In this document: positions 6,953-38,903 of the stretch, one piece after another
Layout: every line of letters begins with the position of its first letter
Position numbering within the stretch: position 1 is the first letter of the stretch
Source of the DNA: Armatimonadota bacterium
GTDB lineage: Bacteria > Armatimonadota > UBA5829 > DTJY01
Direction of reading: 5' to 3'
NCBI GenBank assembly: GCA_963663705.1
Contig: OY760504.1
Location: 1,224,063 to 1,288,062, forward strand
Length of the DNA stretch: 64,000 nucleotides
Position numbers and translations under genes: made by a program
Notes under the pieces: model-generated
What the model was told of the DNA's origin: nothing
The model's database searches: none
The model's input: the letters and a program-made list of their open reading frames with translations, nothing else

Positions 6953-7446
6953 GCCACACCTCTGCTTTTCTTCACGTGCGTTTTCTTCAGTCCGAAGAAG
7001 GAGCGGCCATTCCAATGAGTGCCCGTTATCTCAGTCGCTATGGCACTGAGCGATTTGTAGCGCCGGCCTTCATACTCAAAGCCACCATATACGACTATGA
7101 CCTCGTATGCACGTCCGTTCCATTCGCGTACCAACCGGGTGCCTACTACGGGTACGCCTACCTTGCGCTTTTTCTCTGCGCGTCTGCTGTCCATATTGCC
7201 GCCATTCTCATCAAAGCCACGAGAGTCGAGAACCTCGTCCATAATCTTACGTGCCTTGTCCGACAGACCGCCATATGATATCTCCTGGATGCGATATGCC
7301 AGACGCTTCATGAGATACGGCCGGTTCGTTGCGGTCGGCTCCTTGCCGTAGAGCGTGCGCCAGAGAGAACAGAGTTCCCCATGGCTGAGATTGCCCAAAT
7401 CTGCGATCTGCTTTAATACCGAATTGTCTGTTGATCTTAATGCCAT
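6949..7446 (-). CDS. small basic protein, DUF2924-like; from memory this family often sits beside large serine recombinases
   Basis: 165 aa, immediately upstream of and coupled to the recombinase. Family assignment is from recollection only. Confidence 0.4.
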   Translation of the reverse strand: MALRSTDNSVLKQIADLGNLSHGELCSLWRTLYGKEPTATNRPYLMKRLAYRIQEISYGGLSDKARKIMDEVLDSRGFDENGGNMDSRRAEKKRKVGVPVVGTRLVREWNGRAYEVIVVYGGFEYEGRRYKSLSAIATEITGTHWNGRSFFGLKKTHVKKSRGVA

Positions 7447-22754: not shown

Positions 22755-23261
22755 ATGACAGACATCAACAATACAAACGAATCGGAGCCAGCTATAGGCA
22801 TCAGAGATATAGACGGCATGGATCGATGGCATAGAAATACGAAATCACGGGAGGGTCGTGGGGCAGTGGAAGGAAACCTCAATGCCCTGAAGCACGGCAT
22901 CTACGCAGACCGGTTCCTTTCGCCGGATGAGAAGAAACTCTTCGACGCGATCATTGAGCAGTTGCACGATGACTTTGTGTTCAACAAGAGCAGTGACTTT
23001 CTGCAGGTCGAACTCGTCGGAGTCTATTTTGTAAAGCTGGGGCGTGCCCAGGAGGCTGGTGATCACGATGCGGCTGAGCGGTTGGATCGTATGATCCGCT
23101 GTCACCTGAAGGACCTGAAGACAACCAAGATTACCCGTGAGGGCACCGAGCCGAAGCTCCCTGAGACCACGCCTGCGGAATGGGCGACGGCGCTCCTCGA
23201 GAAATTGGCTGAGGCAGAGAAGAAGGGCGAGGTTATAGTCGAGTCCGAGATAATGCGGTAA
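22755..23261 (+). CDS. hypothetical protein (weak candidate small terminase by position only)
   Basis: 168 aa, last plus-strand gene before the minus-strand block and terL. An imperfect stem-loop (GGCAGATGGGC ... GCCCATCTCC) lies just upstream. Confidence 0.25.
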   Translation: MTDINNTNESEPAIGIRDIDGMDRWHRNTKSREGRGAVEGNLNALKHGIYADRFLSPDEKKLFDAIIEQLHDDFVFNKSSDFLQVELVGVYFVKLGRAQEAGDHDAAERLDRMIRCHLKDLKTTKITREGTEPKLPETTPAEWATALLEKLAEAEKKGEVIVESEIMR

Positions 23262-24278: not shown

Positions 24279-25157
24279 TTATAGTCTCTCAATCGCATCT
24301 TCGAGGATGTCGTCCGAGAGGTGTGTGTAGATCTCAGTTGTGGAGATATCCCGGTGGCCGAGCGCACGCTTGACGAGGAGCAGGTCGGATGTGTTTGCGT
24401 AGAGGTGAGTGGCGAAGGTATGGCGGAGTCCGTGCGGCGTGATCTTCTTTGAGATGCCGGCCTTTGCGAGCCAATAGGAAAGTCTCTGTGCTACCTGCCG
24501 ATTGCAAAGCCGGGTGTTGCGAGATGAGACAAAGAGCGCCGTGGTCTCGCTACCTGTGTGATGCCTGCGCTCTTTCAGGTAAGTCCGCAGCAACGTCCGA
24601 AGGGATGACTTGAGAAACTTGATCTGAGGCACTCCGCCCTTGCCCATGATGCGGATGTGCTTGCCGTCAAGGTCGACATCGTCGATATCGAGGTTCACCA
24701 GTTCCGAGAGTCGGATGCCGGTGCCGAGGAAGATCTCGAAGATCACTCTGTCACGACGTGCCAACGGATTCGAGCGGTCGTGCAGTTCCTTGAGCAGTCG
24801 TCTTTTCTCCGGCTCGGTGAGATACTCCGGCGGTGTTCGCGACAACCGTTTCATGGTGACCGAGCGTGCAGGATTGGAAGCAATGATCCCGGCATCCATC
24901 GCCCAGGCGAAGAAGGATTTTATTACCGCTTTCATACGATGCATTGTCGCGGGTGACTTGTGCCGCCCGTCGGGAGTGTTTGCGGCAGTCGGGTCGATCA
25001 GTGCGGCGTCGATTGTAGCTGGCGTTATATCGGCAAGGTCTATGCCTTTCAGAGCCCGCGCAAAGGTATGCAGGTCGCGCATGTAGGCGGAGATGGTATG
25101 CTCCGAGCGACCTTGCGCCCGGAGCCGTGTCTCGAAGTCAGCGACGGCAGAATTCAT
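24279..25157 (-). CDS. tyrosine recombinase (XerC/D or phage integrase family)
   Basis: C-terminal HGLRHTFATHL...LGHRDISTTEIYTHL with catalytic Tyr. SAM-like core-binding N-domain. The ORF track extends to 25316; M at about 25157 is preferred. Confidence 0.8.
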   Translation of the reverse strand: MNSAVADFETRLRAQGRSEHTISAYMRDLHTFARALKGIDLADITPATIDAALIDPTAANTPDGRHKSPATMHRMKAVIKSFFAWAMDAGIIASNPARSVTMKRLSRTPPEYLTEPEKRRLLKELHDRSNPLARRDRVIFEIFLGTGIRLSELVNLDIDDVDLDGKHIRIMGKGGVPQIKFLKSSLRTLLRTYLKERRHHTGSETTALFVSSRNTRLCNRQVAQRLSYWLAKAGISKKITPHGLRHTFATHLYANTSDLLLVKRALGHRDISTTEIYTHLSDDILEDAIERL

Positions 25158-25176
25158 GCTGCCGGAAGTGATGATT

Positions 25177-25563
25177 CTAATCGGTGCCTGTGCTACTGGC
25201 ATCCGGTACCTCCATCGTGTTCGTTGTGCTGTGACCCATGGGCATATCCTTTGGGAAGGGAAGCTTTGTGATATAGCCCTTGCCAAGCGTCCAGACGAGA
25301 AACATGCGGAAGACACGAACCGTTTTCTTTATGGTAGGTTCAGAGCGTTCCTTGCCGCTCGGCAGTTTCAGCAGCGCATCCGACTTCAGGAATCCTGCAA
25401 CATGCGGGATGAGTATCGCTGACAGCTTCTTCTCGGGACCGAAGTAGGCTTCGATCTGTTGTGCATCCTTGTTGTAAGTGTAAAGTGTCCGCTCGCTCTT
25501 CCCTTCAGCATTGAGGTGGCCGAGGTACTCCCGGAGAGCGCCTTGCAGTGTGATATCAGACAT
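25177..25563 (-). CDS. stand-alone integrase SAM-like (core-binding) N-domain protein
   Basis: 128 aa; ALREYLGHLNAEGKSERTLYTYNKDAQQIEAYFG resembles the phage integrase N-terminal SAM-like domain. Confidence 0.5.
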   Translation of the reverse strand: MSDITLQGALREYLGHLNAEGKSERTLYTYNKDAQQIEAYFGPEKKLSAILIPHVAGFLKSDALLKLPSGKERSEPTIKKTVRVFRMFLVWTLGKGYITKLPFPKDMPMGHSTTNTMEVPDASSTGTD

Positions 25564-25655: not shown

Positions 25656-27182
25656 GTGAACAACTTCACAGAAGAACAGCACAAGATCGCACTATCGCTC
25701 AGAGATCCAGTGGTCTGGGGTCAGTCGTATCTCACAAATCGCGACGGCTCTCCCAGAGAATACTGGCCACACCAGGTCGATGACCTTATGTGCGATGACC
25801 GGAACATAATCCACCTGGACGGACGGGATTCCGGGAAGTCGATATCGCTTACGACGGATGCCCTGCACTATGCCTTCACCGTACGCGGAGGTCAGGGGCT
25901 TATCGCCGCCCCTCACCAGGGGCATCTCGATACATTGATCGAGGAGATCGAGTTTCAACTGGACTCCAACCCCGAACTGATGAAGAGCATCGGCATCACG
26001 AAATACGGCAAGCCGAAGATCTACCGGAAGCCCTACTTCCGGCTGGAGTTCACGAACGGCTCGGTGCTCTATTTTCGTCCTGCAGGCGCATACGGAGATG
26101 CATTCCGGTCGCTGCACGTCGAGCGGGTATGGGTGGATGAGGGCGCGTGGCTCACGGAGAAGGCATGGAAGGCACTCAGGCAGTGTCTCAAGGCAGGCGG
26201 CAGGCTCAGGATCTATTCGACGCCGAATGGACTACGGGACACCACCTACTACCGGCTGACCACATCGTCGCAGTTCAAGGTATTTCGCTGGCCGTCGTGG
26301 ATAAACCCTGACTGGAGCGATGAGCGGGAGAGCGAACTCCTTGAGTTTTACGGCGGGCGCGATACGGCAGGCTGGCAGCATGAGGTCGCCGGCGAACACG
26401 GCAAGCCGTCATACGGGGCATTCAGCCTGGAGAACCTGAATATCTGCCGTCAGGAGACATTGGAATATCGGAAGGTCACTGTGCTGGGAGAAGACATATC
26501 TTCCTGCGCTACGGAAGAAGAATCCCACGACCGGCTGGAGATACTCCTGAACCTCATGCCGCAGACTGGAGTGTTCTGGATAGGAGGCGATCTCGGCTAC
26601 ACCAACGACCCAACGGAACTTGTGATCTTCCGGGAGATGGAGGTCGGGGAGAGATCGATCATGACTCTTGCGCTCCGCATACACATGGAGCATGTGTCGT
26701 ATCCGCATATCGCCCAGACGATATCACTCCTGGATCGGTACTATACTCCGGTCGGCATTGGTGTGGACAACGGTGGAAACGGTCTATCGGTCGTGCAGGA
26801 ACTCCTCACACTTGATAAGTACAAACCGCTCCAGCTTGAGGGCCGGCTCAGGGGTTACGACTTCGGCGGGATGACGACGCTCGCCATCCGGGACGGCCGT
26901 GAGATCAGGAAGCGGACAAAGGAACTGATGACGAGCCTTATCAGCGGCGCCCTGCAACGGCGGCAGATCGTCCTTCCGGCAGAAGACTTAGAGATCGAGG
27001 ACCAGTTTACAACGCAAACATACACGCTCTCGAACGGGAACATCATCTACTCGAAGGGGAACGACCACATCGTTGATGCGGTGAGATGCGCCATGCTCGC
27101 ACGTGAACAGGGAACTCTCGACCAGGTGACCGAGGAGACGGTCTGCGTAATGCCGGTACTCACGAAACCGATCTTCCTATGA
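25656..27182 (+). CDS. terminase large subunit
   Basis: ATPase Walker A-like DGRDSGKS, Walker B VWVDEGAW, and a C-terminal nuclease region. Position just before the portal gene. Confidence 0.8.
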   Translation: MNNFTEEQHKIALSLRDPVVWGQSYLTNRDGSPREYWPHQVDDLMCDDRNIIHLDGRDSGKSISLTTDALHYAFTVRGGQGLIAAPHQGHLDTLIEEIEFQLDSNPELMKSIGITKYGKPKIYRKPYFRLEFTNGSVLYFRPAGAYGDAFRSLHVERVWVDEGAWLTEKAWKALRQCLKAGGRLRIYSTPNGLRDTTYYRLTTSSQFKVFRWPSWINPDWSDERESELLEFYGGRDTAGWQHEVAGEHGKPSYGAFSLENLNICRQETLEYRKVTVLGEDISSCATEEESHDRLEILLNLMPQTGVFWIGGDLGYTNDPTELVIFREMEVGERSIMTLALRIHMEHVSYPHIAQTISLLDRYYTPVGIGVDNGGNGLSVVQELLTLDKYKPLQLEGRLRGYDFGGMTTLAIRDGREIRKRTKELMTSLISGALQRRQIVLPAEDLEIEDQFTTQTYTLSNGNIIYSKGNDHIVDAVRCAMLAREQGTLDQVTEETVCVMPVLTKPIFL

Positions 27183-28152: not shown

Positions 28153-29643
28153 TTGAATAACTCAACCGAACAAATGAATCTCGTCGAATCCGAGAACTCT
28201 GCCGACGGCATGGTGCTCACCCCGCTTGCTGCCGCAGCGGCGCTCGCCACTTCTGCGTTCGCAAGCGTCAATGCTTCCGATGCTATCCCTGCAGCATGGG
28301 AAGACCGGGCGCACAAGGCTTGGGAGTATTACACCGAGGAGCCGCTCGTGAAGAATGCCGTCAACTCGTGGCGCACATTTGCAGTGGGCGATGAGATCAA
28401 GATCAAGAGCGATGATGACACGGTAAAGGAGGAAGCGAACTTGCTTGCTGACAGGCTTGGACTGTCCGACTTCGTGAAGGATATGGTCCTCCAGCTTCTG
28501 GTGAAGGGCGATGCAGTCGGGTTCAAGCGGTATACGAAGGACCTCAAAGATATCGAGGAGGTTACCTGCGTCAACCCGGTATCGGTCAAAGTAAAGTATA
28601 CCCAGGGGCAGCTTGTTGAGGTTCGCCAATACCCGGAGGATACGCCAACGGCGGGTGAGGGATTATCACTTCCAGTAGAGCAGACCATCCACCTGAAGTG
28701 GGATGCGCCGGAGTTCTCACAGAGAGGTAACTCGCTTGTCCTGCCTGCATTCCAGTCCATCGAGCTGCTCCGGGATTACCGAAAAGCTGAACAGGCAATT
28801 GCAAAGCGCTGGGCGACACCGTTTAGGCTCATCAAAGTCGGCGGCGCGTTCGGGCAGAAGATGGTTATGCCGGATCAGAAGATGCTCGAGCAGATCAGGG
28901 ATATGGTTGACAAGATGGATATGAAGAGCGGGCTCGTCGTCCCCTTCTACGTGACAGCGGAGACCCACGGCACGGAAGGCCATGTCCTAAACGTCGAGGA
29001 GAAGGTGAAGGAGGTCAAGGAAGATATCGTCGTGGCCCTCGGGCTCTCCCGATCGCTTGTCGCAGGTGACGGCCCGAACTTTGCCACCGCATCGATCAGC
29101 ATGCAGAAGATGATCGTCATGATCCGGGAGATAAAGCATGCCGCGCGTGCGATACTCGATTGGCTCTTTAATGACTGGCTCGAACTCTCAGGACATCAGG
29201 GGAAGAGCATCCAGTATATCTTCAGCGATCTTGATCCCACCGATGCCGTCGATGTGAAGAAACTCTTGATCGAACTCTATGATCGCAAGCTGATCAGCCG
29301 ATCGAGTCTTCAGATCAAGATGGACCTCGATCCGGATATCGAGGAGGCGAACAGAGAAAGCGAAGGTAAGTCCGTTGACCTACTCGATGAGAAGCAAGTC
29401 AAGCCGATAGTCGATATGGTCGTATCCGGCATAATGGGAGTCGAAACTGCACAGGAGATGTTGGGACTCGATCCGGCAAAGAATAAGCCGATGAACGGGG
29501 CGCAGGCTTCGGTATACGCCGGTGAGATATGCGACTCGTGCGGTTACTTCGATGAGGACAGGAACAAATGCGGTGTCACGCAGGGAGATGTCACCTTCGA
29601 CTCCCACGCCTGCAGGTTTATGCAGTATAGGAGAGATAATTGA
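28153..29643 (+). CDS. portal protein (SPP1 gp6-like by position and size)
   Basis: 496 aa between terL and the MuF gene, with an acidic C-terminus. Family inferred from the conserved SPP1-like gene order. Confidence 0.55.
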   Translation: MNNSTEQMNLVESENSADGMVLTPLAAAAALATSAFASVNASDAIPAAWEDRAHKAWEYYTEEPLVKNAVNSWRTFAVGDEIKIKSDDDTVKEEANLLADRLGLSDFVKDMVLQLLVKGDAVGFKRYTKDLKDIEEVTCVNPVSVKVKYTQGQLVEVRQYPEDTPTAGEGLSLPVEQTIHLKWDAPEFSQRGNSLVLPAFQSIELLRDYRKAEQAIAKRWATPFRLIKVGGAFGQKMVMPDQKMLEQIRDMVDKMDMKSGLVVPFYVTAETHGTEGHVLNVEEKVKEVKEDIVVALGLSRSLVAGDGPNFATASISMQKMIVMIREIKHAARAILDWLFNDWLELSGHQGKSIQYIFSDLDPTDAVDVKKLLIELYDRKLISRSSLQIKMDLDPDIEEANRESEGKSVDLLDEKQVKPIVDMVVSGIMGVETAQEMLGLDPAKNKPMNGAQASVYAGEICDSCGYFDEDRNKCGVTQGDVTFDSHACRFMQYRRDN

Positions 29644-32600
29644 AAGCAGGCTCCACGAGTGTGATGTGTGCCATCGCTGATGTCTCGCAGCAGGCGCAGG
29701 CGATCCGCGAGGCAACGGACAAGTCAATCATGGCTCGTGATATGTATACCGAGCAGGTAGTCTCAGAGCTTACCCAGTCGCTCAAGGCGGCACAGGATCA
29801 GGTTCATAAGTCACTGCTCGGATACAAGGACATCGGCTCGCTACCGGACAGCAAGCTCGCGGCAGTAAGCGGCCTTGAGAAGCTAAATGCCAGGATTGCA
29901 GATACCATGAAGGCACTCAGGCGTGACCAGAGTCTGATGTTCCGTCAGGCATCAACTGCATCATTTCGATCTGGTATATACCGAGGGATCGAGGAGTTCG
30001 CCGCAGCCCAGATGCCGTTTTACAAAGATCTGACTCCTGACGGCATAGACAAACTGACGACCTCTGTGTTCACGCTGATAGATACGGATGCGCTCGAATT
30101 CATGGCGAACTACAACCTGGTTCTCGCAGGCGACGTCCATCGTGAGCTTGCCGATGGCATTAAGAAGAGCATACTCTCCGGCATAGCGACCGGCAAGGGC
30201 GTGGAAGGCATCGTCTCCGATATGGGCAAGGTCATCGAGGATAAAGAATCTTTCCGACATGCCGGAAGCAAGGTATTCACAAAAGCACAGTACCGCATGG
30301 AGACGATCGCCCGGACGGAGATCCTGCGTGCGCATAATCAGGGACGGCTCAAGTTCCACGCGCAGGTCGGCGTACAAAGGCTCGAGTGGATGACGATGGC
30401 CGATGAGCGCACCTGTCCGGTCTGCGGAGCACTCGATGGCAAGCAGTTCGATACGGACAAGTTCCCGAACCAGCCGGCACATCCACTATGCAGATGTTCT
30501 TCGCTGGTAGCCTGGCCACTCGTCATCTGCGGTGGTGAACTCGGATCCGTGGCAGCAGACAGCTCACCGTCGTGTATCCTGCCTCTACAGGCGATAGAGC
30601 AGCAGGCCAAACAGAAATCTGACGAAGAGAAGAAACTGAAATACGCATTCGACTCCGGCGAGATAGGCGATCTATCTGCTCTGACGGTGAAACAGCTTCA
30701 GACCATTGCAAAGCAGAACGGCATATCGATAGCACGCACCAAGGCCGACTTCATTAAGCTGCTCGATGCGGCAGAGCCGGGTATTCACCACGGCGATATG
30801 TCGGGGGCCATCCTTATGGCAAAAGTCAAACAGTACAATATAGCGGCACTCCGGAGTAAAGACGATCTAGTGAAGCTTCTTGCAGATAAGCAGGCCGTTA
30901 TCAAACAGGCGAAGGCATTCGAGGAAGCGGCAAAGAAGGCTGCACCCCAGGGTGGACTATCGAACCTTACGATGGTTCAGCTAAAGGAAATGGCGAAGGA
31001 TCAGGGTATATCGCTGAACCTCACGAAAAGCGAAGTCATCGATATGCTTGATTCTCTTGAACCGGGCGTAGATCATTCCGACATTGCCGGTAAAGCACTC
31101 CTTGCCGCTAAGCAGAAGCACGGCATCCCACCGCTCAAGAACAAAGAACAACTCGTAAAAGTCCTGGAAAAGTCCGCTGGCAATCAGATGGCAGAGCAGG
31201 CAAAGCAGCAGGCGCTCGAAGCCGCAAAGCAGGCGGCTATGAATAAGGCAGCGCAGGCGCTCTCGGATGCCACGGCAAAGGTAGTCGTTCCATCGTCCCC
31301 TACCCAATATTTACAGTTTCTGGAGTCGGTGAAGGGAGCGGAAGCAGAACTCGCAAAAGGCACTGGACTACCGCAATCGGTCCTCTGCGAACAGGCGAAG
31401 GATATTGCTCTGAAGAAGAAGCTCTTTGCAGACCAGATATCTGCTCTGAAGGTCGGCGAACTGAAGGAACTGGCGAAGCAGACAAAGGTCACGCATTGGC
31501 AGTGGTCGAACAAGGATGAACTCGTTACAATATTCACCGAAACTGACGCCAATAAGATCGCCGCTGCAAAGGCAGGAATAGAGGCGAAACATGCCAAGTG
31601 GGCGGAGAAGCACCTGAGTGGCAAATCGGGAAAAGCCAAACCAAATGAACAGAAACCTGTCTCCACTCCATCAGCGCCGGAATCGAAGATCACCGGATCC
31701 CCGACCTTTACAAAGAAAGGTTCTGAGTTCGATGCGGCAGATGCGGTATGGGCTGAATCCGGGAAGCCATCCAAATTCAAATATGATGGCAAGGCCAACG
31801 TAGGCGGCGCACACGAGAAGGAGTTCTGGCTCGATGAAAACGGCGAAAAATGGCTTTTCAAACCGGTCGGCAAGTCGGATGATGACTTCATCGCCTATGG
31901 CGAAGAGGCTGCATACAAGATCGGCAGACTGATCGATCCAGACGCGGTCGAGGTGCGAACGGTGATACTTAAGGGCCGGGTCGGTTCCATGCAAAAATGG
32001 AGAACCGGCCTTGCTGAGAAGTACGATTTCTCAAACATGGATGTTACCGATCTCAGTCCTGATGAGGTAGCGCAGGTTCAACGTGAACACGTCCTCGACT
32101 GGTTGATTTCAAACCATGACGGCCACGCTAAACAGTTCCTGCGGGCAAAAGATGGCAAGGTCTACGGTATCGACAAGGGACAGCTGTTCAAGTTCCTGGG
32201 CTCGGACAAGCTCAATGCCGACTACCATCCTAACCAGGTATGCGGAGAACAGGAGCCGTTCTACAACACGGTCTTCCGTGCTGCAAGAGACGGCAATGTC
32301 AAGTTCGACCCATCCGTCACAATGCGCTATATCCGTGAGGTCGAGAAGATAGCGGATGATGATTATCTGGCACTCCTTCGACCATATGTCGAAGGCAGAT
32401 TCGGCGGAGATGACCTCAAGAAGAAGGCGTTTTATGATCTGGCCCTTTCACGTAAGCATAGTCTGCGGGACGACTTCGAGTCGTTCTACGTCGATGTACT
32501 ACACAAGCCCGGTTTTCGGTTTGATGACGCCATACCGGAAATATCGGTTGCTGGACGTATCGGTAAGGCAGAAGAGGAGATTATCCATGATGCCGAGCGT

Positions 32601-34235
32601 CTTGGCTGGCAGGGAAAGTGCCTTCCCATCGATGCAAACGACATTGAGGATCAGAATGCTCTCATATTCACAGAAAAGGTTGGCAAGGGAGAGCGAACCG
32701 TCGTCAAGATGAAACTCCGTCCGGAAGCAGAACCGAAGATCCTTCCATCCTTGAAGAAAGCGGAGAAACAGGCGGTAGTGAAGATTGGAGAAGCTATCCC
32801 TGAGGATGACTTTGCGAATGATATCCTCTCGGCGGTAAAAACAATCAACCACCATGCCAAGGACGGTAACTACAATCAGGGAACGCTCGATAAAGCTATA
32901 AAGCATATGAAGGCCCTTCGTGCGCTTGCCAAGTCGGACGATTCCGACGTACGCCGGATGGCGGAAACATACATCGGCTGGCTGGATAAGGTACAGCAGG
33001 CTGCATCAGGCAGACAGGGCATTGCTGAGAACTTCACACAGTACCTGAAGCAGTATAAACCTGCGGCAAAGAAAGGGTCCGAGGATCTTGGCTACACGGT
33101 CCGAAAATCGAAGGTGCTCCTTACCAAGCGCACAATAAGCAAAGGCGAACTTGCTGTCGAAAATGAAGCCGCTAACCTGACTGACATCTTCCGTGGGAAC
33201 TCAATGCCCGAAGGCGAACAGTACGAAATAGACTTTGGCGATGGTGTGAAGGCCGTCTACCGACCATGGAATGACAAGAACCTGTATGCTCATTCTGGTG
33301 AGTTTGAGATGGTAATACCGGAGAGGCCGGACCCAAAGAGCCTCAACAAGGCGATGGAACATATGGAAAAGATCGGGATTAAGGCGAACGTCGCCAGTCC
33401 AGAGGATGCCGAGATAATGTATCTTCACAAGCAGTCATATGCCACCAAGGTCGATAGTAACGTGGAGTACAAGAAGATGATGGCAGGCTTGGATCAGAGG
33501 AATGCGACGGGGACAGAGCGGGTTCAGGCCATGCGGGCGTTCTGGGAGAAACGGCTCGGTGTGACTGACATCACAAAGATGCCGGGATACGATCCGGTCG
33601 GCGAATACCAGATGGGTTTCAAAGACCGTTCGATCAAGGGCGGTTATCGGTACCAGTATCGCTTCGATCTATCGGATGCTGACATGGAAAAACAGATGGC
33701 TGGATACAGCCTGTATCATAACATCACGAACGGAAACTCGGTGAGCGGATTCCTAGATACAGCACTTGGGGACAACGGCGCGATGATCAGCACGGTTGAG
33801 AAGATACGCGCCGGTGTGCCGCCCGGAGGGATGTCCCCCGAAGCTGATATGCGAAGCGGTGGAGCGAGCTACATCTTCACACGCATCAAGAAATCGCCAG
33901 TGTCGGGAGGCGACAGGAGCACGGGTCTCTACTTCAAGAAACGGCTTCTGCGTCGAATGGATGCGATCAGCTATGACCATGATGCCTATGGCAAGGTGAT
34001 AGATAATTACGTCGTGGAACATCGTGGATTCGACCCGAAGGAGTGGAAACGGTTCTCAAAGAACGGCAGCAACGAGACGATCCTCAAATACTCGGTCACT
34101 CTGCTCGACAATTTGGAGAATATCGTCGTCGGCACGGAGAGTGAGCGTAAGACTGTGCTCGGTGTGTTCAAGAAGCATGGGGTATCCGTCCTTCCTGATG
34201 GTCGGAAGATAGAAGAAATAGTATTAAAGAGGTGA
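29640..34235 (+). CDS. MuF/SPP1-gp7 head-morphogenesis protein with long polymorphic C-terminal extension (HeH repeats, PI3/PI4-kinase-like domain, unknown region)
   Basis: N-terminal MuF domain with CPVCGALDGKQFD...PLCRC. Three tandem HeH/Rho_N-like repeats (LTVKQLQTIAKQNGISIARTKADFIKLL...). Kinase-like LFKPVGKSDDDF, ISNHDGHAKQ and GIDKGQ. About 500-aa C-terminus with no assignment. Confidence 0.7.
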   Translation: MKAGSTSVMCAIADVSQQAQAIREATDKSIMARDMYTEQVVSELTQSLKAAQDQVHKSLLGYKDIGSLPDSKLAAVSGLEKLNARIADTMKALRRDQSLMFRQASTASFRSGIYRGIEEFAAAQMPFYKDLTPDGIDKLTTSVFTLIDTDALEFMANYNLVLAGDVHRELADGIKKSILSGIATGKGVEGIVSDMGKVIEDKESFRHAGSKVFTKAQYRMETIARTEILRAHNQGRLKFHAQVGVQRLEWMTMADERTCPVCGALDGKQFDTDKFPNQPAHPLCRCSSLVAWPLVICGGELGSVAADSSPSCILPLQAIEQQAKQKSDEEKKLKYAFDSGEIGDLSALTVKQLQTIAKQNGISIARTKADFIKLLDAAEPGIHHGDMSGAILMAKVKQYNIAALRSKDDLVKLLADKQAVIKQAKAFEEAAKKAAPQGGLSNLTMVQLKEMAKDQGISLNLTKSEVIDMLDSLEPGVDHSDIAGKALLAAKQKHGIPPLKNKEQLVKVLEKSAGNQMAEQAKQQALEAAKQAAMNKAAQALSDATAKVVVPSSPTQYLQFLESVKGAEAELAKGTGLPQSVLCEQAKDIALKKKLFADQISALKVGELKELAKQTKVTHWQWSNKDELVTIFTETDANKIAAAKAGIEAKHAKWAEKHLSGKSGKAKPNEQKPVSTPSAPESKITGSPTFTKKGSEFDAADAVWAESGKPSKFKYDGKANVGGAHEKEFWLDENGEKWLFKPVGKSDDDFIAYGEEAAYKIGRLIDPDAVEVRTVILKGRVGSMQKWRTGLAEKYDFSNMDVTDLSPDEVAQVQREHVLDWLISNHDGHAKQFLRAKDGKVYGIDKGQLFKFLGSDKLNADYHPNQVCGEQEPFYNTVFRAARDGNVKFDPSVTMRYIREVEKIADDDYLALLRPYVEGRFGGDDLKKKAFYDLALSRKHSLRDDFESFYVDVLHKPGFRFDDAIPEISVAGRIGKAEEEIIHDAERLGWQGKCLPIDANDIEDQNALIFTEKVGKGERTVVKMKLRPEAEPKILPSLKKAEKQAVVKIGEAIPEDDFANDILSAVKTINHHAKDGNYNQGTLDKAIKHMKALRALAKSDDSDVRRMAETYIGWLDKVQQAASGRQGIAENFTQYLKQYKPAAKKGSEDLGYTVRKSKVLLTKRTISKGELAVENEAANLTDIFRGNSMPEGEQYEIDFGDGVKAVYRPWNDKNLYAHSGEFEMVIPERPDPKSLNKAMEHMEKIGIKANVASPEDAEIMYLHKQSYATKVDSNVEYKKMMAGLDQRNATGTERVQAMRAFWEKRLGVTDITKMPGYDPVGEYQMGFKDRSIKGGYRYQYRFDLSDADMEKQMAGYSLYHNITNGNSVSGFLDTALGDNGAMISTVEKIRAGVPPGGMSPEADMRSGGASYIFTRIKKSPVSGGDRSTGLYFKKRLLRRMDAISYDHDAYGKVIDNYVVEHRGFDPKEWKRFSKNGSNETILKYSVTLLDNLENIVVGTESERKTVLGVFKKHGVSVLPDGRKIEEIVLKR

Positions 34236-34714: not shown

Positions 34715-35033
34715 ATATGTGATCGAGTATGCAATAAGAGACCGGGATTCGAACCCGCGCTACGAACCGATAGGTGTGTGGGTACAGGGACCAGGCCCTG
34801 GGCTGGATATCGAGATGGCGTATTTGCCCGGCAATGATGAGTATCAGGAGGAAGCGGATTGGGTGATCAATCGGCTGGTGGAGAACGGTGTTCGGTCACT
34901 GCCGGATGATTTTCTGGAGTATCACCGGGCGACCATGTCGCCATATCGAGGGATGTTCGGGGAGAGCGTGGAGGCGGAAGCGTATTCCACAATCCAATTG
35001 TGCACGGCGACGATTCTCGCCTCATTGAAGTGA
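34704..35033 (+). CDS. hypothetical protein (second small gene after the MuF toxin)
   Basis: About 109 aa from MRIRYVIEY. The ORF track gives 34656. Confidence 0.3.
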   Translation: MRIRYVIEYAIRDRDSNPRYEPIGVWVQGPGPGLDIEMAYLPGNDEYQEEADWVINRLVENGVRSLPDDFLEYHRATMSPYRGMFGESVEAEAYSTIQLCTATILASLK

Positions 35034-35222
35034 TTTACTCGGCATCAGACCTTATCGTTAAGAATACCACCTGGCACTTAAGAGTCTCCAGCTACAAATG
35101 CCGAGGTAGGCCTCTCAGCTATTTTTTTTTGCACTTCGAAAACCAGTCAAAAAAAAAGCCGACACTTTGCAAACTTTTTCAATACATATTAAGTGGGAGG
35201 GCTTAATTATTAAGCCCACGGT
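35034..35222. promoter_or_regulatory. unusual intergenic region before the capsid operon (terminator-like T9, A9 run, repeated 15-mer, palindrome)
   Basis: GAGG-TAGG-CCTC stem plus T9 (35122-35130). A9 (35149-35157). CCGACACTTTGCAAA (35159-35173), identical to 12903-12917. Perfect palindrome GGGCTTAATTATTAAGCCC (35199-35217). Confidence 0.4.
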
Positions 35223-37643
35223 TTGCGAGGTAAATCATACGTGCAACTTTTTGCCACCGACTACGATAGACTGGCATTCCTTCTCGAGACAGACGCATCT
35301 CTTGCCCTGGGTGAACTTATCGCTCAGGGTGAGGAGCCTGACTCCGAGGAAGTGCCGGAAGATAAACGACCCAAATACATAACGAACTACATCGGCTCGA
35401 AGCAGAAGCTCGTCGACTGGATATGGAAGCATACCCCGGAAGGTGTCGCGTCCGTACTGGATGCATTCTCCGGCTCGGCGGTCGTGGCATATATGTACAA
35501 GACCAAGGGGCTCTCTGTATATGCCAACGACCGCCTCCACTACGCCTACCATGCCGCTCGCGCCATAGTCGAAAACGACAGCGTTCGGATATCGGAAGAT
35601 GAACTCGCTGCTCTCCTTGCGAAAAGCCCAAAGGCCGGGACCTTTGTCCAAGATAACTTTAAGGGGCTTTTCTTCGCAAACGGAGTGCACGGCGTCATCG
35701 ATAATATTCGGGCAAACGCAGACAGTCTTTCCGGGTTCAAGAAAGATATCGCGCTCTTTGCACTCGGAAAGACCTGCATGTCCGGCAAGGGTGGGTTCGG
35801 TCACTTCTCATCGTCCACCGATTACGGGAAGCGCCAGGACACGCCTGAGGAGTTCGAAGAGCGATTCACGGATAATGTCACCCGCATCAACGCTCTCGTC
35901 TTCGATAACGGCAAGGAATGCAAGGCATATGCCAAGGATATCAACGACATACTCCCGGGGTCTAAAGTCGACCTTGCATACTTCGATCCGCCTTATGCAA
36001 CCGAGTTCTCGACCACAAATTACGAGAAGTCCTACCACTTCATAGAAGGGCTCATGACATACTGGGACGGCCTCGAGATAAACCAGGACTCGAAGACCCA
36101 TCACTATGCGACGGACCATAAAACAGTGACCAAGGCTAACGCGAGTGAGTTCTTCGGTACTTTCCTTGCGAACGCCAATCACATACCAAATTGGCTGATC
36201 TCATACCGCGACCATGCCTACCCGAACGAGGGTGAGATGAAAGATATTATCTCGGCAAGCGGCATGCAGTCCAGAATGCAGTCCCAGCAGCATAAGTACA
36301 ACATCTCATCGAAGCATTCGGAGAACTCGACCGCAATGGAGCGGCTCTTCATCTGCTCAAAGTCATCTGCGTCTACCCAGGCGGATAGCGCGAATGAAGA
36401 GCCGCGCCCTGTTACTAAGATTCTATCGGCTGCATCACTCGCGGCAAACTGCCACACATCGATACCGGTCGAAGTAAGGCTGGGCGCAAATGATTCGATG
36501 TCTGCTCATGCCATCGATTTGAATACGAATGCCGGCGATCCACAGTTCAGCCTTATCATGTGCCGGGTCGGGACTAACAGAAACGGCGACCACTTCCTGC
36601 CGGAAGAGTTGTCTACCCGGTACACAACAGCAATCAACAAGAAGATCGACCTCAAACACTCCCAGGACCTGACTGACATAGTCGGCGGCATCGTGGGCGC
36701 TGAATACGTCGATGATGAGACAGGCGGCAGAGTCGAATGCGTGGGCGAGCTATACACAGCGGACACCCCCACCGCTGCGCTCGCCTACAAGCTCATGAAA
36801 CGCGGCATCATCTCTCAGGTCTCTATGGAGTGCGATTACGAGGCTGGTGAATGTTCGATCTGCGGGAAGACCGTAGCTAACAAGAACGACTACTGCGTTC
36901 ACCTCAGAAAGTTCAAAGGTGCAGAGTACCAGGGCAAACCGGTCTACGAGATACTGCACGGCGTAACGTTCACCGGCCTCGGCCTCCTCGATCGGAAGGG
37001 GGCAGACGAGAATGCACGCATCACACAGGTAGCAAGCGAACAGATAAACACAGGAGGCAACAAGTTGGAAGACGATAAGAAAGATATAGATGACGGCGCA
37101 GATGCCGCAAAGAAGAAGGCGCCGGATGGTGGTGGCAATAGTAATCCTTCTGCGCCCCCTATCCCGCCGGCAGATGATAAGGCCCGAATCAAGGAACTCG
37201 AGTCGGAGAATAAGACACTGAAGCAGCAGGTCATCGATCTTGAAAAGCAGGTACAGGAACTCGAAGCCGCGAGCCAGGCCGCCGCTAACAAGACGCGCGC
37301 TCAGAAACTAATCCAGAAGCTCGAGAAGTCGGGGATGTCCTTCGGCTCGGATGAAGACCGGGAGAAGGAGATGAGCAGGCTATCGGAACTCTCAGACGAT
37401 GCTTTCTCTGCAACGGAAGCCGCTTACGACAGGGCGATACAGCCGAAATCGGAGTGTCCCTGTACCGATAAATCCGGCGAAAAGGAAGAGAAGAACGCTG
37501 CATCTGCTTCCATGCGATCAAACGCCAATGTTCGGCCCGTAGATGTCGACGATAAGAAGCTTTCTCTCGAAGACAAGCTCAAGCAGGGATTCATGACGGC
37601 GTACCGGGAGCGTGTCGGCGCAGTCACTGGTGAAAAGAATTAG
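35223..37643 (+). CDS. Dam-like N6-adenine DNA methyltransferase fused to prohead protease/scaffold-like C-terminal region
   Basis: N-terminal FSGSA (motif I) and DPPY (motif IV) in alpha-class spacing. The middle region resembles a prohead protease (GDHF..., SMECDYE). The C-terminus is a coiled-coil scaffold (KELESENKTLKQQVIDLEKQVQELEAA). The start is possibly a GTG at 35241 with a GAGG Shine-Dalgarno. Confidence 0.55.
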   Translation: MRGKSYVQLFATDYDRLAFLLETDASLALGELIAQGEEPDSEEVPEDKRPKYITNYIGSKQKLVDWIWKHTPEGVASVLDAFSGSAVVAYMYKTKGLSVYANDRLHYAYHAARAIVENDSVRISEDELAALLAKSPKAGTFVQDNFKGLFFANGVHGVIDNIRANADSLSGFKKDIALFALGKTCMSGKGGFGHFSSSTDYGKRQDTPEEFEERFTDNVTRINALVFDNGKECKAYAKDINDILPGSKVDLAYFDPPYATEFSTTNYEKSYHFIEGLMTYWDGLEINQDSKTHHYATDHKTVTKANASEFFGTFLANANHIPNWLISYRDHAYPNEGEMKDIISASGMQSRMQSQQHKYNISSKHSENSTAMERLFICSKSSASTQADSANEEPRPVTKILSAASLAANCHTSIPVEVRLGANDSMSAHAIDLNTNAGDPQFSLIMCRVGTNRNGDHFLPEELSTRYTTAINKKIDLKHSQDLTDIVGGIVGAEYVDDETGGRVECVGELYTADTPTAALAYKLMKRGIISQVSMECDYEAGECSICGKTVANKNDYCVHLRKFKGAEYQGKPVYEILHGVTFTGLGLLDRKGADENARITQVASEQINTGGNKLEDDKKDIDDGADAAKKKAPDGGGNSNPSAPPIPPADDKARIKELESENKTLKQQVIDLEKQVQELEAASQAAANKTRAQKLIQKLEKSGMSFGSDEDREKEMSRLSELSDDAFSATEAAYDRAIQPKSECPCTDKSGEKEEKNAASASMRSNANVRPVDVDDKKLSLEDKLKQGFMTAYRERVGAVTGEKN

Positions 37644-37657
37644 GAAGGGAGACAGTC

Positions 37658-38020
37658 ATGGGATTTTTGAACCCTAATCACAGAGGCCTCGCTTATGGCG
37701 ATGGCTATATACAGGCTGAAGGAAAGTGCGGCCAGTTCGTGAAGCTGGTCGGAAACGATCTCTTCGCAGTAAACACCGATCCGACCGCCAAGTCGTTTGG
37801 CGTGCTGATCAAAGACTACAAAGCAGGCGATATGCCCGGCATATTCTGCATGGGCGGCGTCTATGAGACCGATGTGTTCGACGGCACCATCGCGGCAGGA
37901 GACGACCTGAAGGTAGCAGCTACCGGCCATCTGACCGCAGGCGTTGGTGTCGGCGACGTAGTAGTGGCCACTGCCATATCGGTATCCGGTGGCACGCTCA
38001 AGTTCCGCCTGCTGATATAG
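37658..38020 (+). CDS. hypothetical head protein (possible decoration protein, DUF2190-like)
   Basis: 120 aa, Gly/Ala/Val-rich, between the scaffold gene and the capsid gene. Confidence 0.3.
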   Translation: MGFLNPNHRGLAYGDGYIQAEGKCGQFVKLVGNDLFAVNTDPTAKSFGVLIKDYKAGDMPGIFCMGGVYETDVFDGTIAAGDDLKVAATGHLTAGVGVGDVVVATAISVSGGTLKFRLLI

Positions 38021-38039: not shown

Positions 38040-38903
38040 TTGGAGAACAATAAGATAAACATTCACAGCCAGGAATATATGGAGACGATGGCGCGTCTCA
38101 TGAGCGAGGCACTGGAATCCCCTGATGGAATGAGGGCACTCGCGGCGGCTATAGCAGTCCCGATCGAACAGGAGATCGCGAGGAAAGAGATTACCTCACT
38201 TCTCCTCACCCAGCATACGCTCCCGAAAGGCGAGCGCCCGATCTACCAGAAGAAACCTAAAGTGAACGCCTACTGGATCAGCACCGAGGGTGAGGCAAGG
38301 GAGCAGGAACTCGGACAGGACGAGGTCGAATTTCCAACCAACCGCATCCATTCCACGCCGATGGTCGACGTTAGCGTCCTAAAAAATGGAAACATCGGCA
38401 CCTTGATGGACATCCAGACTTCCGCTTCCGACGAGATCAGGAAGGAGATCGACAGGCGAACACTCACCGTCCTCTCTGCCGCAGTGCCGGCCGCGAACAC
38501 GATCACGGTTACAGGCGGCAAGCTCACCGACGATGCGCTGAACGAAGCTATCTCCATCATCGAGGATTTGGAGCTTTCAGTAAAGTATATCGTCATGCGA
38601 GGCAGGCGTTTTAACGACATGCGTGACTGGGACCTCGACCCTGAGACGCGGGCAGAGCTCAGAACCAAGGGTGTCATCAAAAACTACGGCACCGGCGGGA
38701 TTCTTCTCACTGCATCCGCCGATATGACTGAGATACTGCTTCTTCCGGATGAGGAGATCGGCAAGATGCCGGTTCGTGAAGCGCTCAGGACCGAGGCAAT
38801 CGACCAGAAGACACGGTTCAAGACCGGATGGCTTGTCTGGACGGAACTCGGACAGGGTGTGACTCGCCCTGAAATCATGGCGAAGATCAAGATAACAGCC
38901 TAA
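38040..38903 (+). CDS. putative major capsid protein
   Basis: 287 aa, directly after the protease/scaffold and decoration genes. Assigned by position; no motif verified. Confidence 0.45.
   Translation: MENNKINIHSQEYMETMARLMSEALESPDGMRALAAAIAVPIEQEIARKEITSLLLTQHTLPKGERPIYQKKPKVNAYWISTEGEAREQELGQDEVEFPTNRIHSTPMVDVSVLKNGNIGTLMDIQTSASDEIRKEIDRRTLTVLSAAVPAANTITVTGGKLTDDALNEAISIIEDLELSVKYIVMRGRRFNDMRDWDLDPETRAELRTKGVIKNYGTGGILLTASADMTEILLLPDEEIGKMPVREALRTEAIDQKTRFKTGWLVWTELGQGVTRPEIMAKIKITA

What the first reader, a model, noticed from the sequence alone, without database searches (positions are those of the whole stretch)
35223..37643. Dam-like N6-adenine methyltransferase fused in-frame to the prohead protease/scaffold: candidate capsid-packaged anti-restriction methylase
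One 806-aa ORF has an N-terminal alpha-class adenine methyltransferase (motif I FSGSA, motif IV DPPY, about 165 aa apart). It continues into a region resembling a prohead maturation protease and ends in a long coiled-coil scaffold segment (KELESENKTLKQQVIDLEKQVQELEAASQ). It lies immediately before the decoration and major capsid genes. Attaching a methyltransferase to the scaffold/protease module would place it inside the procapsid, where it could methylate DNA during packaging or be co-injected, as in capsid-internal anti-restriction methylases such as P1 DarB.
Basis: partly seen in the sequence, partly recalled or inferred. Interest (0 to 1): 0.65.

Follow-up and report, generated by a model that had tools for sequence, protein, structure and literature searches.

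The report
Methyltransferase fused to phage head protease-scaffold
A prophage's head-maturation protease/scaffold gene carries an intact DNA adenine methyltransferase at its front end and a hidden internal start for free scaffold protein, an arrangement found in hundreds of uncultured phages that probably loads the methyltransferase into the capsid, although this has not been shown.

Summary
ORF 35223-37643 (probable start GTG 35241, 800 aa) has three parts: a D12-class N6-adenine DNA methyltransferase, an assemblin/HK97-fold prohead serine protease with a conserved Cys/His cluster, and an alpha-helical coiled-coil tail. It occupies the protease/scaffold slot of a myovirus-type prophage. The fusion is not a sequencing artefact: more than 500 database proteins and over 300 loci across many bacterial phyla keep the frame, and many carry two tandem methyltransferases. 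New here: a conserved internal AGGAGG-N7-start (TTG 37065; 164 of 165 loci) predicts a nested 192-aa scaffold, as I recall for Mu I/Z and lambda C/Nu3. No start for a methyltransferase-free protease exists in this phage, so the methyltransferase very probably enters the procapsid. Whether it acts there, after ejection, or earlier in the cytoplasm is untested. A related phage encodes the orthologous methyltransferase (48% identity) as a free gene, so fusion is not essential for its basic role. "Dam-like" is too specific, because the Dam subfamily cut-off is not met. P1 DarB is only a functional analogy. Verdict: a new variant of known kinds (nested protease/scaffold plus capsid-loaded effector), of moderately high interest, and testable in cultured Desulfobacterota lysogens.

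The parts
35241..37643 (+). Full-length gene for methyltransferase-protease-scaffold (800 aa from GTG 35241; the longest ORF starts at TTG 35223)
   Evidence: Identical to P0001. Full-length match to phrog_27806, aa 8-800 against profile 2-788/798, 1067.7 bits.
35241..35312 (+). Conserved N-terminal peptide (x-LFATDxDRLAFLLExDA) found only in fused forms; function unknown
   Evidence: Near-invariant columns in alignment A1. N-termini of fused homologues. Absent from the free orthologue L167:280-1404.
35388..36377 (+). D12-class (alpha-type) N6-adenine DNA methyltransferase domain, aa 56 to about 385
   Evidence: PF02086 aa 56-272, E 2.7e-22. 48% identical over 343 aa to the free-standing MTase of a related phage. 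Below the Dam subfamily cut-off.
35466..35480 (+). Motif I, FSGSA (AdoMet binding)
   Evidence: DAFSG[SG][AG] is intact in essentially all MTase domains found in the 156 fusion genes examined.
35985..35996 (+). Motif IV, DPPY (catalytic)
   Evidence: [FL]DPPY was found 209 times across the 156 fusion genes examined.
36378..36443 (+). Variable linker between methyltransferase and protease module; contains no start codon here
36444..37034 (+). Prohead (head-maturation) serine protease of the assemblin/HK97 fold, aa 408-604, beginning at the conserved HTSIPVE motif (36453)
   Evidence: AF2 model with pLDDT 97-98 over aa 440-604. PDB top four matches are herpesvirus assemblins. BFVD gives 178 matches at E<=1e-3, best phage G gp19 at 2.9e-17, with many named prohead protease. 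phrog_18299 is matched by 31 of 53 relatives. Methyltransferase-less relatives start at the HTS motif.
36657..36659 (+). His479, candidate catalytic histidine
   Evidence: Near-invariant in A2. The HSQ[DE] motif is present in 156 of 156 genes. Pairs with HK97 gp4 His65 in hhalign.
36822..36824 (+). Ser534, candidate catalytic serine (VSMEC)
   Evidence: Near-invariant in A2. Pairs with HK97 gp4 Ser114 in hhalign.
36852..36902 (+). Cys/His cluster C544-x2-C547...C558-x-H560, a probable zinc site and an insertion relative to HK97 gp4
   Evidence: Near-invariant down to about 25% identity. Weak zinc-finger-like matches. Falls in a gap against HK97 gp4.
37052..37057 (+). Internal Shine-Dalgarno sequence AGGAGG, encoded by the Gly-Gly codons
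   Evidence: GGA-GGN in six of six loci. SD plus start in 164 of 165 loci against 0.24 expected.
37065..37643 (+). Nested in-frame gene from TTG codon 615: predicted free scaffolding protein of 192 aa
   Evidence: Also present in methyltransferase-less relatives L167 and L169.
37176..37328 (+). Long alpha-helix / coiled coil, aa 652-702
   Evidence: AF2 helix at fragment residues 258-308, pLDDT 83-91. Generic coiled-coil Pfam hits.
37566..37628 (+). Conserved C-terminal helix, aa 782-802; candidate capsid-protein-binding end of the scaffold (inferred)
   Evidence: AF2 helix at fragment residues 388-408. Invariant columns E389, L392 and G395 in A1.
37658..38020 (+). Conserved 120-aa head gene (decoration or accessory protein; identity unresolved)
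   Evidence: phrog_673, E 2.2e-8. The same 119-120-aa gene is present in all related loci.
38040..38903 (+). HK97-fold major capsid protein, 287 aa, too short to carry a delta domain
   Evidence: NF042927, 280.6 bits. phrog_2522, E 5.2e-86.
28153..29643 (+). Portal protein (context)
   Evidence: phrog_2739, E 1.1e-62.
29640..34235 (+). Giant MuF-domain head protein, 1531 aa (context; candidate capsid-delivered polyvalent effector)
   Evidence: PF04233 at aa 173-287. phrog_6577. Conserved in relatives.

Best explanation
This is the head-maturation protease/scaffold gene of a temperate, contractile-tailed prophage, and it has acquired a DNA methyltransferase as an N-terminal passenger. The gene gives two products. 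(1) From GTG 35241 comes an 800-aa polyprotein with three parts: an intact D12-class N6-adenine methyltransferase, an assemblin/HK97-fold serine protease (His479/Ser534, with a Cys/His cluster), and a helical scaffold segment. (2) From a strong internal ribosome-binding site and TTG at 37065 comes a 192-aa free scaffold protein. During head assembly, the scaffold segment of the polyprotein would co-assemble with free scaffold and the 287-aa capsid protein, carrying protease and methyltransferase into the procapsid. The protease would then cut scaffold and linkers, whose fragments leave. The folded methyltransferase of about 45 kDa is too large to escape and would stay with the genome. There it would methylate the DNA in cis, during or after packaging or after co-ejection into the next host, pre-empting restriction. 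SHOWN: the ORF, the three domain identities, intact catalytic motifs, the conserved nested start, conserved synteny, and the absence of any other protease gene or any start for a methyltransferase-free protease. INFERRED: co-assembly, retention in the capsid, where and when methylation happens, and the anti-restriction benefit.
For: Domains: PF02086 at 80 bits. The protease model has pLDDT 97-98. Herpesvirus assemblins are the top PDB matches, and 178 BFVD matches are dominated by prohead proteases. phrog_18299 'head maturation protease' is matched by 31 of 53 relatives. H479 and S534 are near-invariant and pair with HK97 gp4 H65 and S114. The helix at aa 652-702 is confident. Nested start: AGGAGG-N7-TTG, GGAGG plus ATG/GTG/TTG in six of six loci, and 164 of 165 loci against 0.24 expected, giving a product of 174-228 aa. 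It is also present in methyltransferase-less relatives. Slot: TerL, portal, MuF, [gene], 120 aa, capsid protein, then sheath, here and in relatives, with no other protease found. Selection for linkage: over 500 proteins. Of 159 genes, 92 have one and 49 have two (D/N)PPY methyltransferase motifs. The four complete genes with none are decayed fusions. Catalytic motifs are intact throughout. No start codon precedes the protease here. Precedents: effectors fused upstream of assemblin-like peptidases in phage polyvalent proteins, and MuF-fused effectors (PMC5512222); T4 internal proteins and Alt targeted to the prohead core, trimmed by the protease and ejected (PMC7411985).
Against: There are no virion proteomics, methylome or expression data. 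A related phage encodes the orthologous methyltransferase (48% identity) as a free gene next to its terminase genes, so the enzyme can serve this phage group without being tethered. Some recombinant prohead proteases self-cleave outside capsids (PMC7411985), so the methyltransferase might be released before assembly. One subclade has a possible extra start just before the protease. Methylation inside a densely packed capsid needs AdoMet and access to DNA, and both are uncertain. The scaffold role of the C-terminal segment rests on position, helicity and the nested start, not on homology. The adjacent 120-aa gene weakly matches a 'scaffolding' PHROG.
Confidence: 0.5

Rival explanations
1. This is an ordinary late-expressed phage methyltransferase that acts in the cytoplasm. 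The unassembled polyprotein methylates replicating phage DNA before packaging, as free phage orphan methyltransferases do. The fusion only couples its expression, timing or dosage to the head operon, or removes the enzyme afterwards. Any encapsidation is incidental.
For: A related phage has the orthologous enzyme (48% identity over 343 aa, E 6e-120) as a separate 375-aa gene beside TerS/TerL, with a plain 392-aa protease-scaffold. The methyltransferase sequence is well conserved across the family rather than diversifying.
Against: In the large clade that includes the window, the covalent fusion is universal, or secondarily decayed, across many phyla despite hypervariable linkers. A second methyltransferase was added inside the same polypeptide rather than as a separate gene. 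Full-length product depends on a GTG start with a weaker GAGG site, while the nested scaffold has AGGAGG. That suggests a low-copy protein, which suits bulk cytoplasmic methylation poorly. This last point is inference.
Confidence: 0.3
2. This is a host-directed injected effector. The encapsidated methyltransferase is ejected with the DNA and methylates the new host's chromosome, or other targets, to reprogram gene expression, influence the lysogeny decision or blunt methylation-sensing defences, rather than protecting phage DNA.
For: The neighbouring 1531-aa MuF-domain protein indicates that this lineage invests in capsid-delivered effectors (PMC5512222). The architecture is compatible with ejection.
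Against: Nothing specific supports it. A few dozen enzyme molecules are unlikely to modify a megabase chromosome quickly. The simplest substrate in cis is the co-packaged genome.
Confidence: 0.1
3. The methyltransferase domain has a structural or DNA-handling role. It would serve as an internal head protein that binds DNA, helping packaging, condensation or ejection, with catalysis secondary or lost.
For: It would sit inside the procapsid. Other relatives carry non-enzymatic add-ons of unknown function at the same position.
Against: The AdoMet-binding and DPPY catalytic motifs are intact in essentially every copy, including both copies of the tandem forms, which argues for selection on catalysis.
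Confidence: 0.07
4. The fusion is an artefact: a missed stop or frameshift has joined two adjacent genes.
For: None.
Against: The same in-frame architecture occurs in over 500 database proteins, in at least 144 loci of species-representative genomes and in at least 158 viral contigs from independent assemblies. It also has a full-length PHROG family.
Confidence: 0.01

Closest known systems
Phage Mu gpI/gpZ and lambda gpC/gpNu3 (nested protease/scaffold genes); details from my own knowledge of the literature
   Same: One reading frame encodes an N-terminal head protease and a C-terminal scaffold segment. An in-frame internal start produces abundant free scaffold that shares its C-terminus with the protease, and that is how the protease is incorporated. 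The gene lies between portal/MuF and the capsid gene. Here the internal SD plus start is conserved in 164 of 165 loci.
   Different: Mu and lambda have no enzyme upstream of the protease. Lambda gpC is, to my knowledge, a ClpP/S49-type protease rather than assemblin-fold. The protease here has a Cys/His cluster insertion and is not covered by the Pfam Mu-like_Pro or S78 models.
HK97 gp4 / herpesvirus assemblin-type prohead serine proteases (the Pfam families Peptidase_S78, S78_2 and Mu-like_Pro, which I recall as one clan)
   Same: The fold matches. The His...Ser pair is in the same order and pairs with gp4 H65 and S114. Those residue numbers are from my own knowledge of Duda et al. 2013, which I could not verify in the held library. 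The C-terminal region is used for encapsidation (PMC7411985).
   Different: Sequence similarity is very low: hhalign E 0.036, and Pfam S78 reaches only sporadic sub-threshold hits on relatives. There is an extra zinc-ribbon-like insertion. The closest named relatives are Bacillus phage G gp19 and Gordonia phage 'capsid maturation protease'.
Polyvalent proteins of phages with a C-terminal assemblin-like peptidase, and MuF-fused effectors (Iyer, Burroughs, Anand, de Souza & Aravind 2017, PMC5512222)
   Same: Disparate effector domains in one polypeptide are encoded in the head/packaging module, predicted to be packaged and released by an embedded peptidase. The assemblin-like peptidase lies downstream of the effectors. 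The window also has a giant MuF protein next door.
   Different: In the passages returned by my term searches, that paper's prevalent methylase is the DarB-type methylase-helicase dyad. Those passages do not mention a D12 methyltransferase fused to a protease-scaffold with a nested scaffold start. Here the peptidase is not at the very C-terminus, because a scaffold segment follows it.
T4 internal proteins (IPI-III) and Alt, loaded by a capsid-targeting sequence
   Same: Non-structural proteins are loaded into the prohead through interaction with the scaffold core, trimmed by the prohead protease, retained in the head and ejected with the DNA. As I recall, IPI is an anti-restriction protein (PMC7411985; PMC5512222).
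   Different: T4 uses a short N-terminal propeptide of 10-20 aa on separate genes. Here the cargo is covalently fused to the protease-scaffold itself.
Phage P1 DarB (capsid-packaged anti-restriction methyltransferase)
   Same: It is a DNA methyltransferase that is a head component and protects the incoming genome in cis against restriction (PMC5512222).
   Different: DarB is a giant protein with a different class of adenine methylase, fused to an SF2 helicase and an LPD36 domain. To my knowledge it is loaded with help from other Dar proteins. The window protein has none of these. It is a functional analogy only, not homology.
Engineered P22 scaffold-fusion nanoreactors and encapsulin cargo-loading peptides (my own knowledge; reviewed in PMC11626933 and PMC6387247, seen only as titles and abstract openings)
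   Same: Cargo enzymes are directed into an HK97-fold shell by tethering them to the scaffold or a shell-binding peptide.
   Different: Those are engineered systems or non-viral compartments. This would be a natural, widespread phage example.

Membership tests
D12-class N6-adenine DNA methyltransferase (Pfam PF02086) | Score above the Pfam gathering threshold | tested here: met
   80.2 bits against 22, aa 56-272. Homologues score 80-165 bits.
D12-class N6-adenine DNA methyltransferase (Pfam PF02086) | AdoMet-binding motif I (FxGxG-like) upstream of catalytic motif IV (DPPY), the alpha-type order | tested here: met
   FSGSA at aa 82 and DPPY at aa 255. Both are intact family-wide.
D12-class N6-adenine DNA methyltransferase (Pfam PF02086) | AdoMet-dependent methylation of adenine N6 in DNA, and the target sequence | not testable with these tools
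   There is no close solved or characterised relative. Palindrome statistics were uninformative.
Dam subfamily (NCBIfam TIGR00571, GATC-specific) | Score above the curated subfamily cut-off | tested here: not met
   25.5 bits against a cut-off of 114.85, and only aa 55-110 matched.
Assemblin/HK97-fold prohead serine protease | Characteristic fold | tested here: met
   Model pLDDT is 97-98 over aa 440-604. The top four PDB hits are herpesvirus proteases, best E 7.7e-3 with probability 1.00 but TM only about 0.39. BFVD gives 178 hits at E<=1e-3, the named ones being prohead proteases, with TMq up to 0.70.
Assemblin/HK97-fold prohead serine protease | Conserved catalytic His followed by catalytic Ser | tested here: met
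   H479 and S534 are near-invariant down to 25% identity, and the His motif is present in 156 of 156 fusion genes. They pair with HK97 gp4 H65 and S114. The catalytic role of those gp4 residues is from my own knowledge.
Assemblin/HK97-fold prohead serine protease | Third catalytic residue | tested here: inconclusive
   Candidates H560, H579 and D595 are conserved. Model coordinates could not be inspected and the alignment does not decide.
Assemblin/HK97-fold prohead serine protease | Membership of a curated sequence family (Pfam Peptidase_S78, S78_2 or Mu-like_Pro) | tested here: not met
   The window protein has no hit. There are only single sub-threshold hits among relatives. It is matched by PHROG families instead.
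Assemblin/HK97-fold prohead serine protease | Gene located in the head module between portal/MuF and the major capsid gene, as the only protease | tested here: met
Nested protease/scaffold gene (Mu I/Z, lambda C/Nu3 type) | In-frame internal ribosome-binding site and start codon giving a C-terminal co-terminal product | tested here: met
   AGGAGG-N7-TTG at 37052-37067. Conserved in 164 of 165 loci against 0.24 expected. Present in methyltransferase-less relatives. Actual translation is untested.
Nested protease/scaffold gene (Mu I/Z, lambda C/Nu3 type) | C-terminal product is an elongated alpha-helical scaffold that binds the capsid protein | tested here: inconclusive
   A long confident helix at aa 652-702 and further helices. 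There is no homology to a characterised scaffold. The capsid protein lacks a delta domain, so a separate scaffold is expected (inference).
P1 DarB-type capsid methyltransferase | DarB-type adenine methylase fused to an SF2 helicase and an LPD36 domain | tested here: not met
   The only enzymatic domains are the D12 methyltransferase and the protease. The DarB architecture is as described in PMC5512222.
Phage polyvalent protein (Iyer et al. 2017) | Several functionally disparate domains in one polypeptide, in a portal-terminase packaging context, with an embedded peptidase | tested here: met
   Methyltransferase (one or two copies), assemblin-like peptidase and scaffold, within the head module. 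The definition is from PMC5512222.
Capsid-packaged / ejected protein | Physical presence in procapsids and virions, and entry into the host | not testable with these tools
   Requires virion proteomics and infection experiments.

The most novel reading that the evidence does not exclude
The N-terminus of this protease-scaffold is a natural, modular cargo port for the phage capsid. Cargo includes one or two DNA methyltransferases here, an uncharacterised domain of about 100 aa in relatives, and possibly Dps/ferritin in other phages. The tethered methyltransferases would methylate each genome in cis, inside the head or immediately on ejection, so that every virion carries its own anti-restriction enzyme. 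That could help explain why nearly the same head module turns up in prophages of many bacterial phyla.
Probability: 0.3. Interest if true: 0.75.

Novelty: new variant of a known kind. Interest (0 to 1): 0.58.

Why it matters
If the methyltransferase really travels inside the capsid, this would be a simple, genetically encoded way for a phage to give each genome its own modification enzyme. It would be independent of the producing host and different from the few studied cases (P1 DarB, T4 internal proteins). It would also be a natural counterpart of engineered scaffold-fusion cargo loading in HK97-fold shells. The family is large: hundreds of loci in Armatimonadota, Desulfobacterota, Acidobacteriota, Planctomycetota, Chloroflexota, Nitrospirota and others. 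Current databases label it only 'DNA adenine methylase', so head-protease and scaffold genes are being mis-annotated. The nested scaffold gene is not listed as a separate gene in any of the gene tables returned here. Several cultured strains carry the element, including Desulfosarcina alkanivorans, D. widdelii, Syntrophus buswellii DM-2, Desulfobulbus rhabdoformis and Desulfofustis glycolicus, so the prediction is directly testable.

Tried and rejected
- A near-DNA search of the 16-kb head region against deposited phages found nothing, and protein-level hits there were only partial.
- The first structure model, built on 31 close homologues, was poor for the protease (pLDDT about 50). It was replaced by a model built on 53 diverse relatives.
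- A profile search of the protease family against PDB sequences returned only zinc-finger and coiled-coil noise.
- A phmmer search of the methyltransferase against PDB found nothing.
- Pfam has no model for this protease.
- Palindrome and GATC statistics did not reveal a target site.
- An extra internal start that would give methyltransferase-free protease was considered. It exists only in one subclade and not in the window.
- Apparently methyltransferase-less members of the close clade proved to be frameshifted or interrupted fusions.
- The source organism could not be identified. P0001 carries no name, the exact-product look-up failed, and no 100% match appeared among species representatives. 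The nearest relatives are Armatimonadota MAGs.
- The HK97 H65/S114 catalytic assignment could not be verified in the held literature.
- Literature searches found no description of this architecture.
Full report
**1. The observation**

The + strand carries an 806-aa ORF from TTG 35223 to the stop at 37643. The more likely start is GTG 35241, which has GAGG 8 nt upstream. It gives an 800-aa product identical to database protein P0001.
- Motif I (FSGSA) is at aa 82 and motif IV (DPPY) at aa 255.
- Pfam PF02086, the D12-class N6-adenine DNA methyltransferase, matches aa 56-272 at 80.2 bits against a 22-bit threshold.

**2. The fusion is real**

- PHROG family phrog_27806 matches end to end: aa 8-800 against profile positions 2-788 of 798, 1067.7 bits.
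- A search of 5.8 billion proteins returned 513 homologues. They fall into two size classes.
  - One class is about 800 aa, like the window.
  - The other is 1,150-1,400 aa and carries two tandem D12 methyltransferase domains ahead of the same C-terminal module.
- Scans found at least 144 loci in species-representative genomes and at least 158 in IMG/VR viral contigs.
- Of 159 genes recovered from those loci, 92 have one (D/N)PPY motif upstream of the protease and 49 have two.
- The four complete genes with no such motif are frameshifted or interrupted remnants of fusions.
- One search seed lay in the methyltransferase, so these proportions are biased toward fusions.
- A sequencing artefact is excluded.

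**3. The middle region is a prohead protease**

- Direct profile hits for the window protein were weak: phrog_18299 'head maturation protease' at E 0.0018, and tblastn hits to Bacillus phage G gp19 and a Gordonia phage 'capsid maturation protease'.
- An exhaustive search with aa 420-640 found 937 relatives.
- In an alignment of 53 of them, down to 25% identity, the near-invariant residues are N452, N454, E462, H479, G488, S534, C544, C547, C558, H560 and D595.
- 31 of the 53 match phrog_18299, best E 5.5e-28.
- Pfam gives only isolated sub-threshold hits to Peptidase_S78, S78_2 and Mu-like_Pro.
- AlphaFold2 on this alignment gave pLDDT 97-98 over aa 440-604.
- Foldseek against the PDB put four herpesvirus assemblins on top, with modest scores: E 7.7e-3, probability 1.00, TM about 0.39.
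- Foldseek against BFVD gave 178 matches at E<=1e-3. The best is phage G gp19 at 2.9e-17, and the named hits are prohead or head-maturation proteases.
- hhalign against HK97 gp4 scores weakly (E 0.036), but it pairs H479 with gp4 H65 and S534 with gp4 S114.
  - From my own knowledge those are the catalytic residues of gp4. I could not verify this in the held literature.
- The Cys/His cluster is an insertion relative to gp4.
- I conclude that this is an assemblin/HK97-fold prohead serine protease of a lineage that Pfam does not model.

**4. The C-terminal part and a nested gene**

- The model of aa 395-806 shows a confident long helix at aa 652-702 and further helices up to aa 802.
- In the otherwise hypervariable linker after the protease, the family conserves G-G/D-x-x-[M/L/V]-[D/E].
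- The window DNA there reads ACA GGA GGC AAC AAG TTG. That is AGGAGG, 7 nt, then an in-frame TTG at codon 615 (37065), leaving 192 codons.
- In six loci the Gly codons are always GGA-GGN, and the start is ATG, TTG or GTG.
- Across 165 complete genes, 164 have an in-frame SD plus start 81-91 codons after the catalytic-Ser motif.
  - The codon is ATG in 138, GTG in 15 and TTG in 11.
  - The background expectation is 0.24 sites per window.
  - The predicted product is 174-228 aa.
- The loci are phylogenetically related, so these are not 164 independent events. Even so, the signal survives in a linker that is otherwise unconserved.
- Methyltransferase-less relatives have the same feature.
- This is the nested protease/scaffold arrangement known, to my recollection, from Mu I/Z and lambda C/Nu3.

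**5. Context**

- The window is a myovirus-type prophage beside a tmRNA gene.
- It carries recombinases, a LexA-like repressor and replication genes.
- Its late region runs in this order:
  - TerS-like gene, TerL and portal
  - a 1531-aa MuF-domain protein and two small genes
  - this gene, then a 120-aa gene
  - a 287-aa HK97-fold capsid protein (NF042927, 280.6 bits)
  - neck, sheath, tube, tape measure and baseplate
- No other protease was found.
- The same order holds in Desulfosarcina alkanivorans and four other loci.
- The 120-aa gene was not confirmed as a decoration protein.

**6. Is the methyltransferase an add-on?**

- More distant relatives of about 390-450 aa begin within a few residues of the conserved HTS motif that opens the protease module.
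- Others carry a different N-terminal domain of about 100 aa, once or twice.
- The N-terminus is therefore a modular attachment point.
- In the window there is no start codon between the methyltransferase and the protease. A possible one exists only in one subclade.
- So the only protease this phage appears to make is the fusion.
- Motifs I and IV are intact in essentially every methyltransferase domain.

**7. A caution**

- A methyltransferase-less relative (L167) has the same head module, plus a free-standing 375-aa D12 methyltransferase next to its terminase genes.
- That enzyme is 48% identical over 343 aa to the window's domain (E 6e-120). The two protease-scaffolds are 37% identical.
- The enzyme therefore belongs to this phage lineage whether free or fused, and fusion is not required for its basic role.
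- The free form lacks the conserved N-terminal peptide of the fused forms.

**8. Mechanism**

- Best-supported reading:
  - The polyprotein co-assembles with free scaffold and capsid protein through its C-terminal segment, taking protease and methyltransferase into the procapsid.
  - Proteolysis removes the scaffold.
  - The methyltransferase, about 45 kDa, stays trapped with the genome and methylates it in cis, or after ejection, which protects it from restriction.
- The anatomy is shown. Incorporation, retention, the site of action and the benefit are inferred.
- Precedents from the literature:
  - T4 internal proteins and Alt are loaded through the prohead core, trimmed and ejected (PMC7411985).
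  - In phage polyvalent proteins, effectors sit upstream of an assemblin-like peptidase (PMC5512222).
- The main rival is a cytoplasmic late methyltransferase whose fusion merely couples expression.

**9. Comparison and novelty**

- The enzyme is D12-class, but it does not meet the Dam subfamily cut-off: 25.5 bits against 114.85.
- It is not a DarB relative.
- Literature searches found no description of a methyltransferase-protease-scaffold fusion.
- Databases call it 'DNA adenine methylase'.
- I rate it a new variant of known kinds, of moderately high interest, and testable in cultured lysogens.

Noticed in passing
window 29640-34235 (+): A 1531-aa MuF-domain head protein: PF04233 at aa 173-287, SAP/Rho_N-like repeats at about aa 340-470, and about 1000 aa of unannotated C-terminal sequence. 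It is conserved at 1524-1531 aa in relatives L002-L004. It looks like a capsid-delivered 'polyvalent' effector.
   Followed up: no
window 14329-16122 (+): An AAA_24 ATPase gene of the replication module is interrupted by an intein carrying a LAGLIDADG homing-endonuclease domain.
   Followed up: no
window 1674-2024, 5378-7015 (-), 24279-25316 (-): A tmRNA gene flanks the element, a likely attachment site. The element has both a large serine recombinase and a tyrosine integrase. The integrase sits oddly between the TerS-like gene (22755-23261) and TerL (25656-27182), and Desulfosarcina locus L001 has a similar arrangement.
   Followed up: no
L002 2169-5232; L003 4406-5724; L005 921-5638; window 35033-35223: In relatives, a variable island of reverse-strand genes lies immediately upstream of the methyltransferase-protease gene. 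Contents include S74 peptidase plus FRG domain, an alpha/beta hydrolase, and an MmeI-like type IIL restriction-modification enzyme. The window has only a 190-nt gap there, so this looks like a moron or defence hot-spot.
   Followed up: partly
proteins P0127, P0138, P0141, P0147, P0150, P0161; between the two methyltransferases in P0090, P0095, P0098: An uncharacterised domain of about 100 aa (consensus ETxNEIRYRVRDPxxFxPDxFR...GVxGV...GKLK...DP..MV.Q.YRF) is an alternative or additional N-terminal add-on of the same protease. The four members scanned (P0127, P0141, P0147, P0161) had no Pfam match.
   Followed up: partly
BFVD entries A0A6J5RFH1 (622 aa) and A0A6J5N5R9 (679 aa): Proteins annotated as Dps/ferritin match the prohead-protease model at E about 1e-8. 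This suggests other cargo fused to prohead proteases in uncultured phages.
   Followed up: no
window 36852-36902 (aa 544-560): A C-x2-C...C-x-H cluster inside the protease is conserved down to 25% identity and is absent from HK97 gp4. It is probably a structural zinc site typical of the phage G gp19-like protease lineage.
   Followed up: partly
window 35241-35312 (aa 7-30 of the ORF): A conserved N-terminal peptide (LFATDxDRLAFLLExDA) followed by an acidic variable stretch occurs in all fused methyltransferases but not in the free-standing orthologue. Its role is unknown; targeting or regulation are possibilities.
   Followed up: partly
loci L006-L085: The protease-scaffold part is 56-73% identical in prophages of many phyla: Armatimonadota, Desulfobacterota, Acidobacteriota, Nitrospirota, Planctomycetota, Chloroflexota, Kiritimatiellota, Gammaproteobacteria and others. 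One Bryobacterales genome has four copies. That is unusually broad for one head module.
   Followed up: no
It is conserved at 119-120 aa in all related loci.
   Followed up: partly
window 3554-4843 (+), 57233-60778 (+) and 62045-63046 (+): A C-methyltransferase (Methyltransf_14/13) lies near the tmRNA end. An Amidoligase_2 protein lies near the other end, after a 1181-aa DUF4815 protein. It is not determined whether these are host genes or phage cargo.
   Followed up: no
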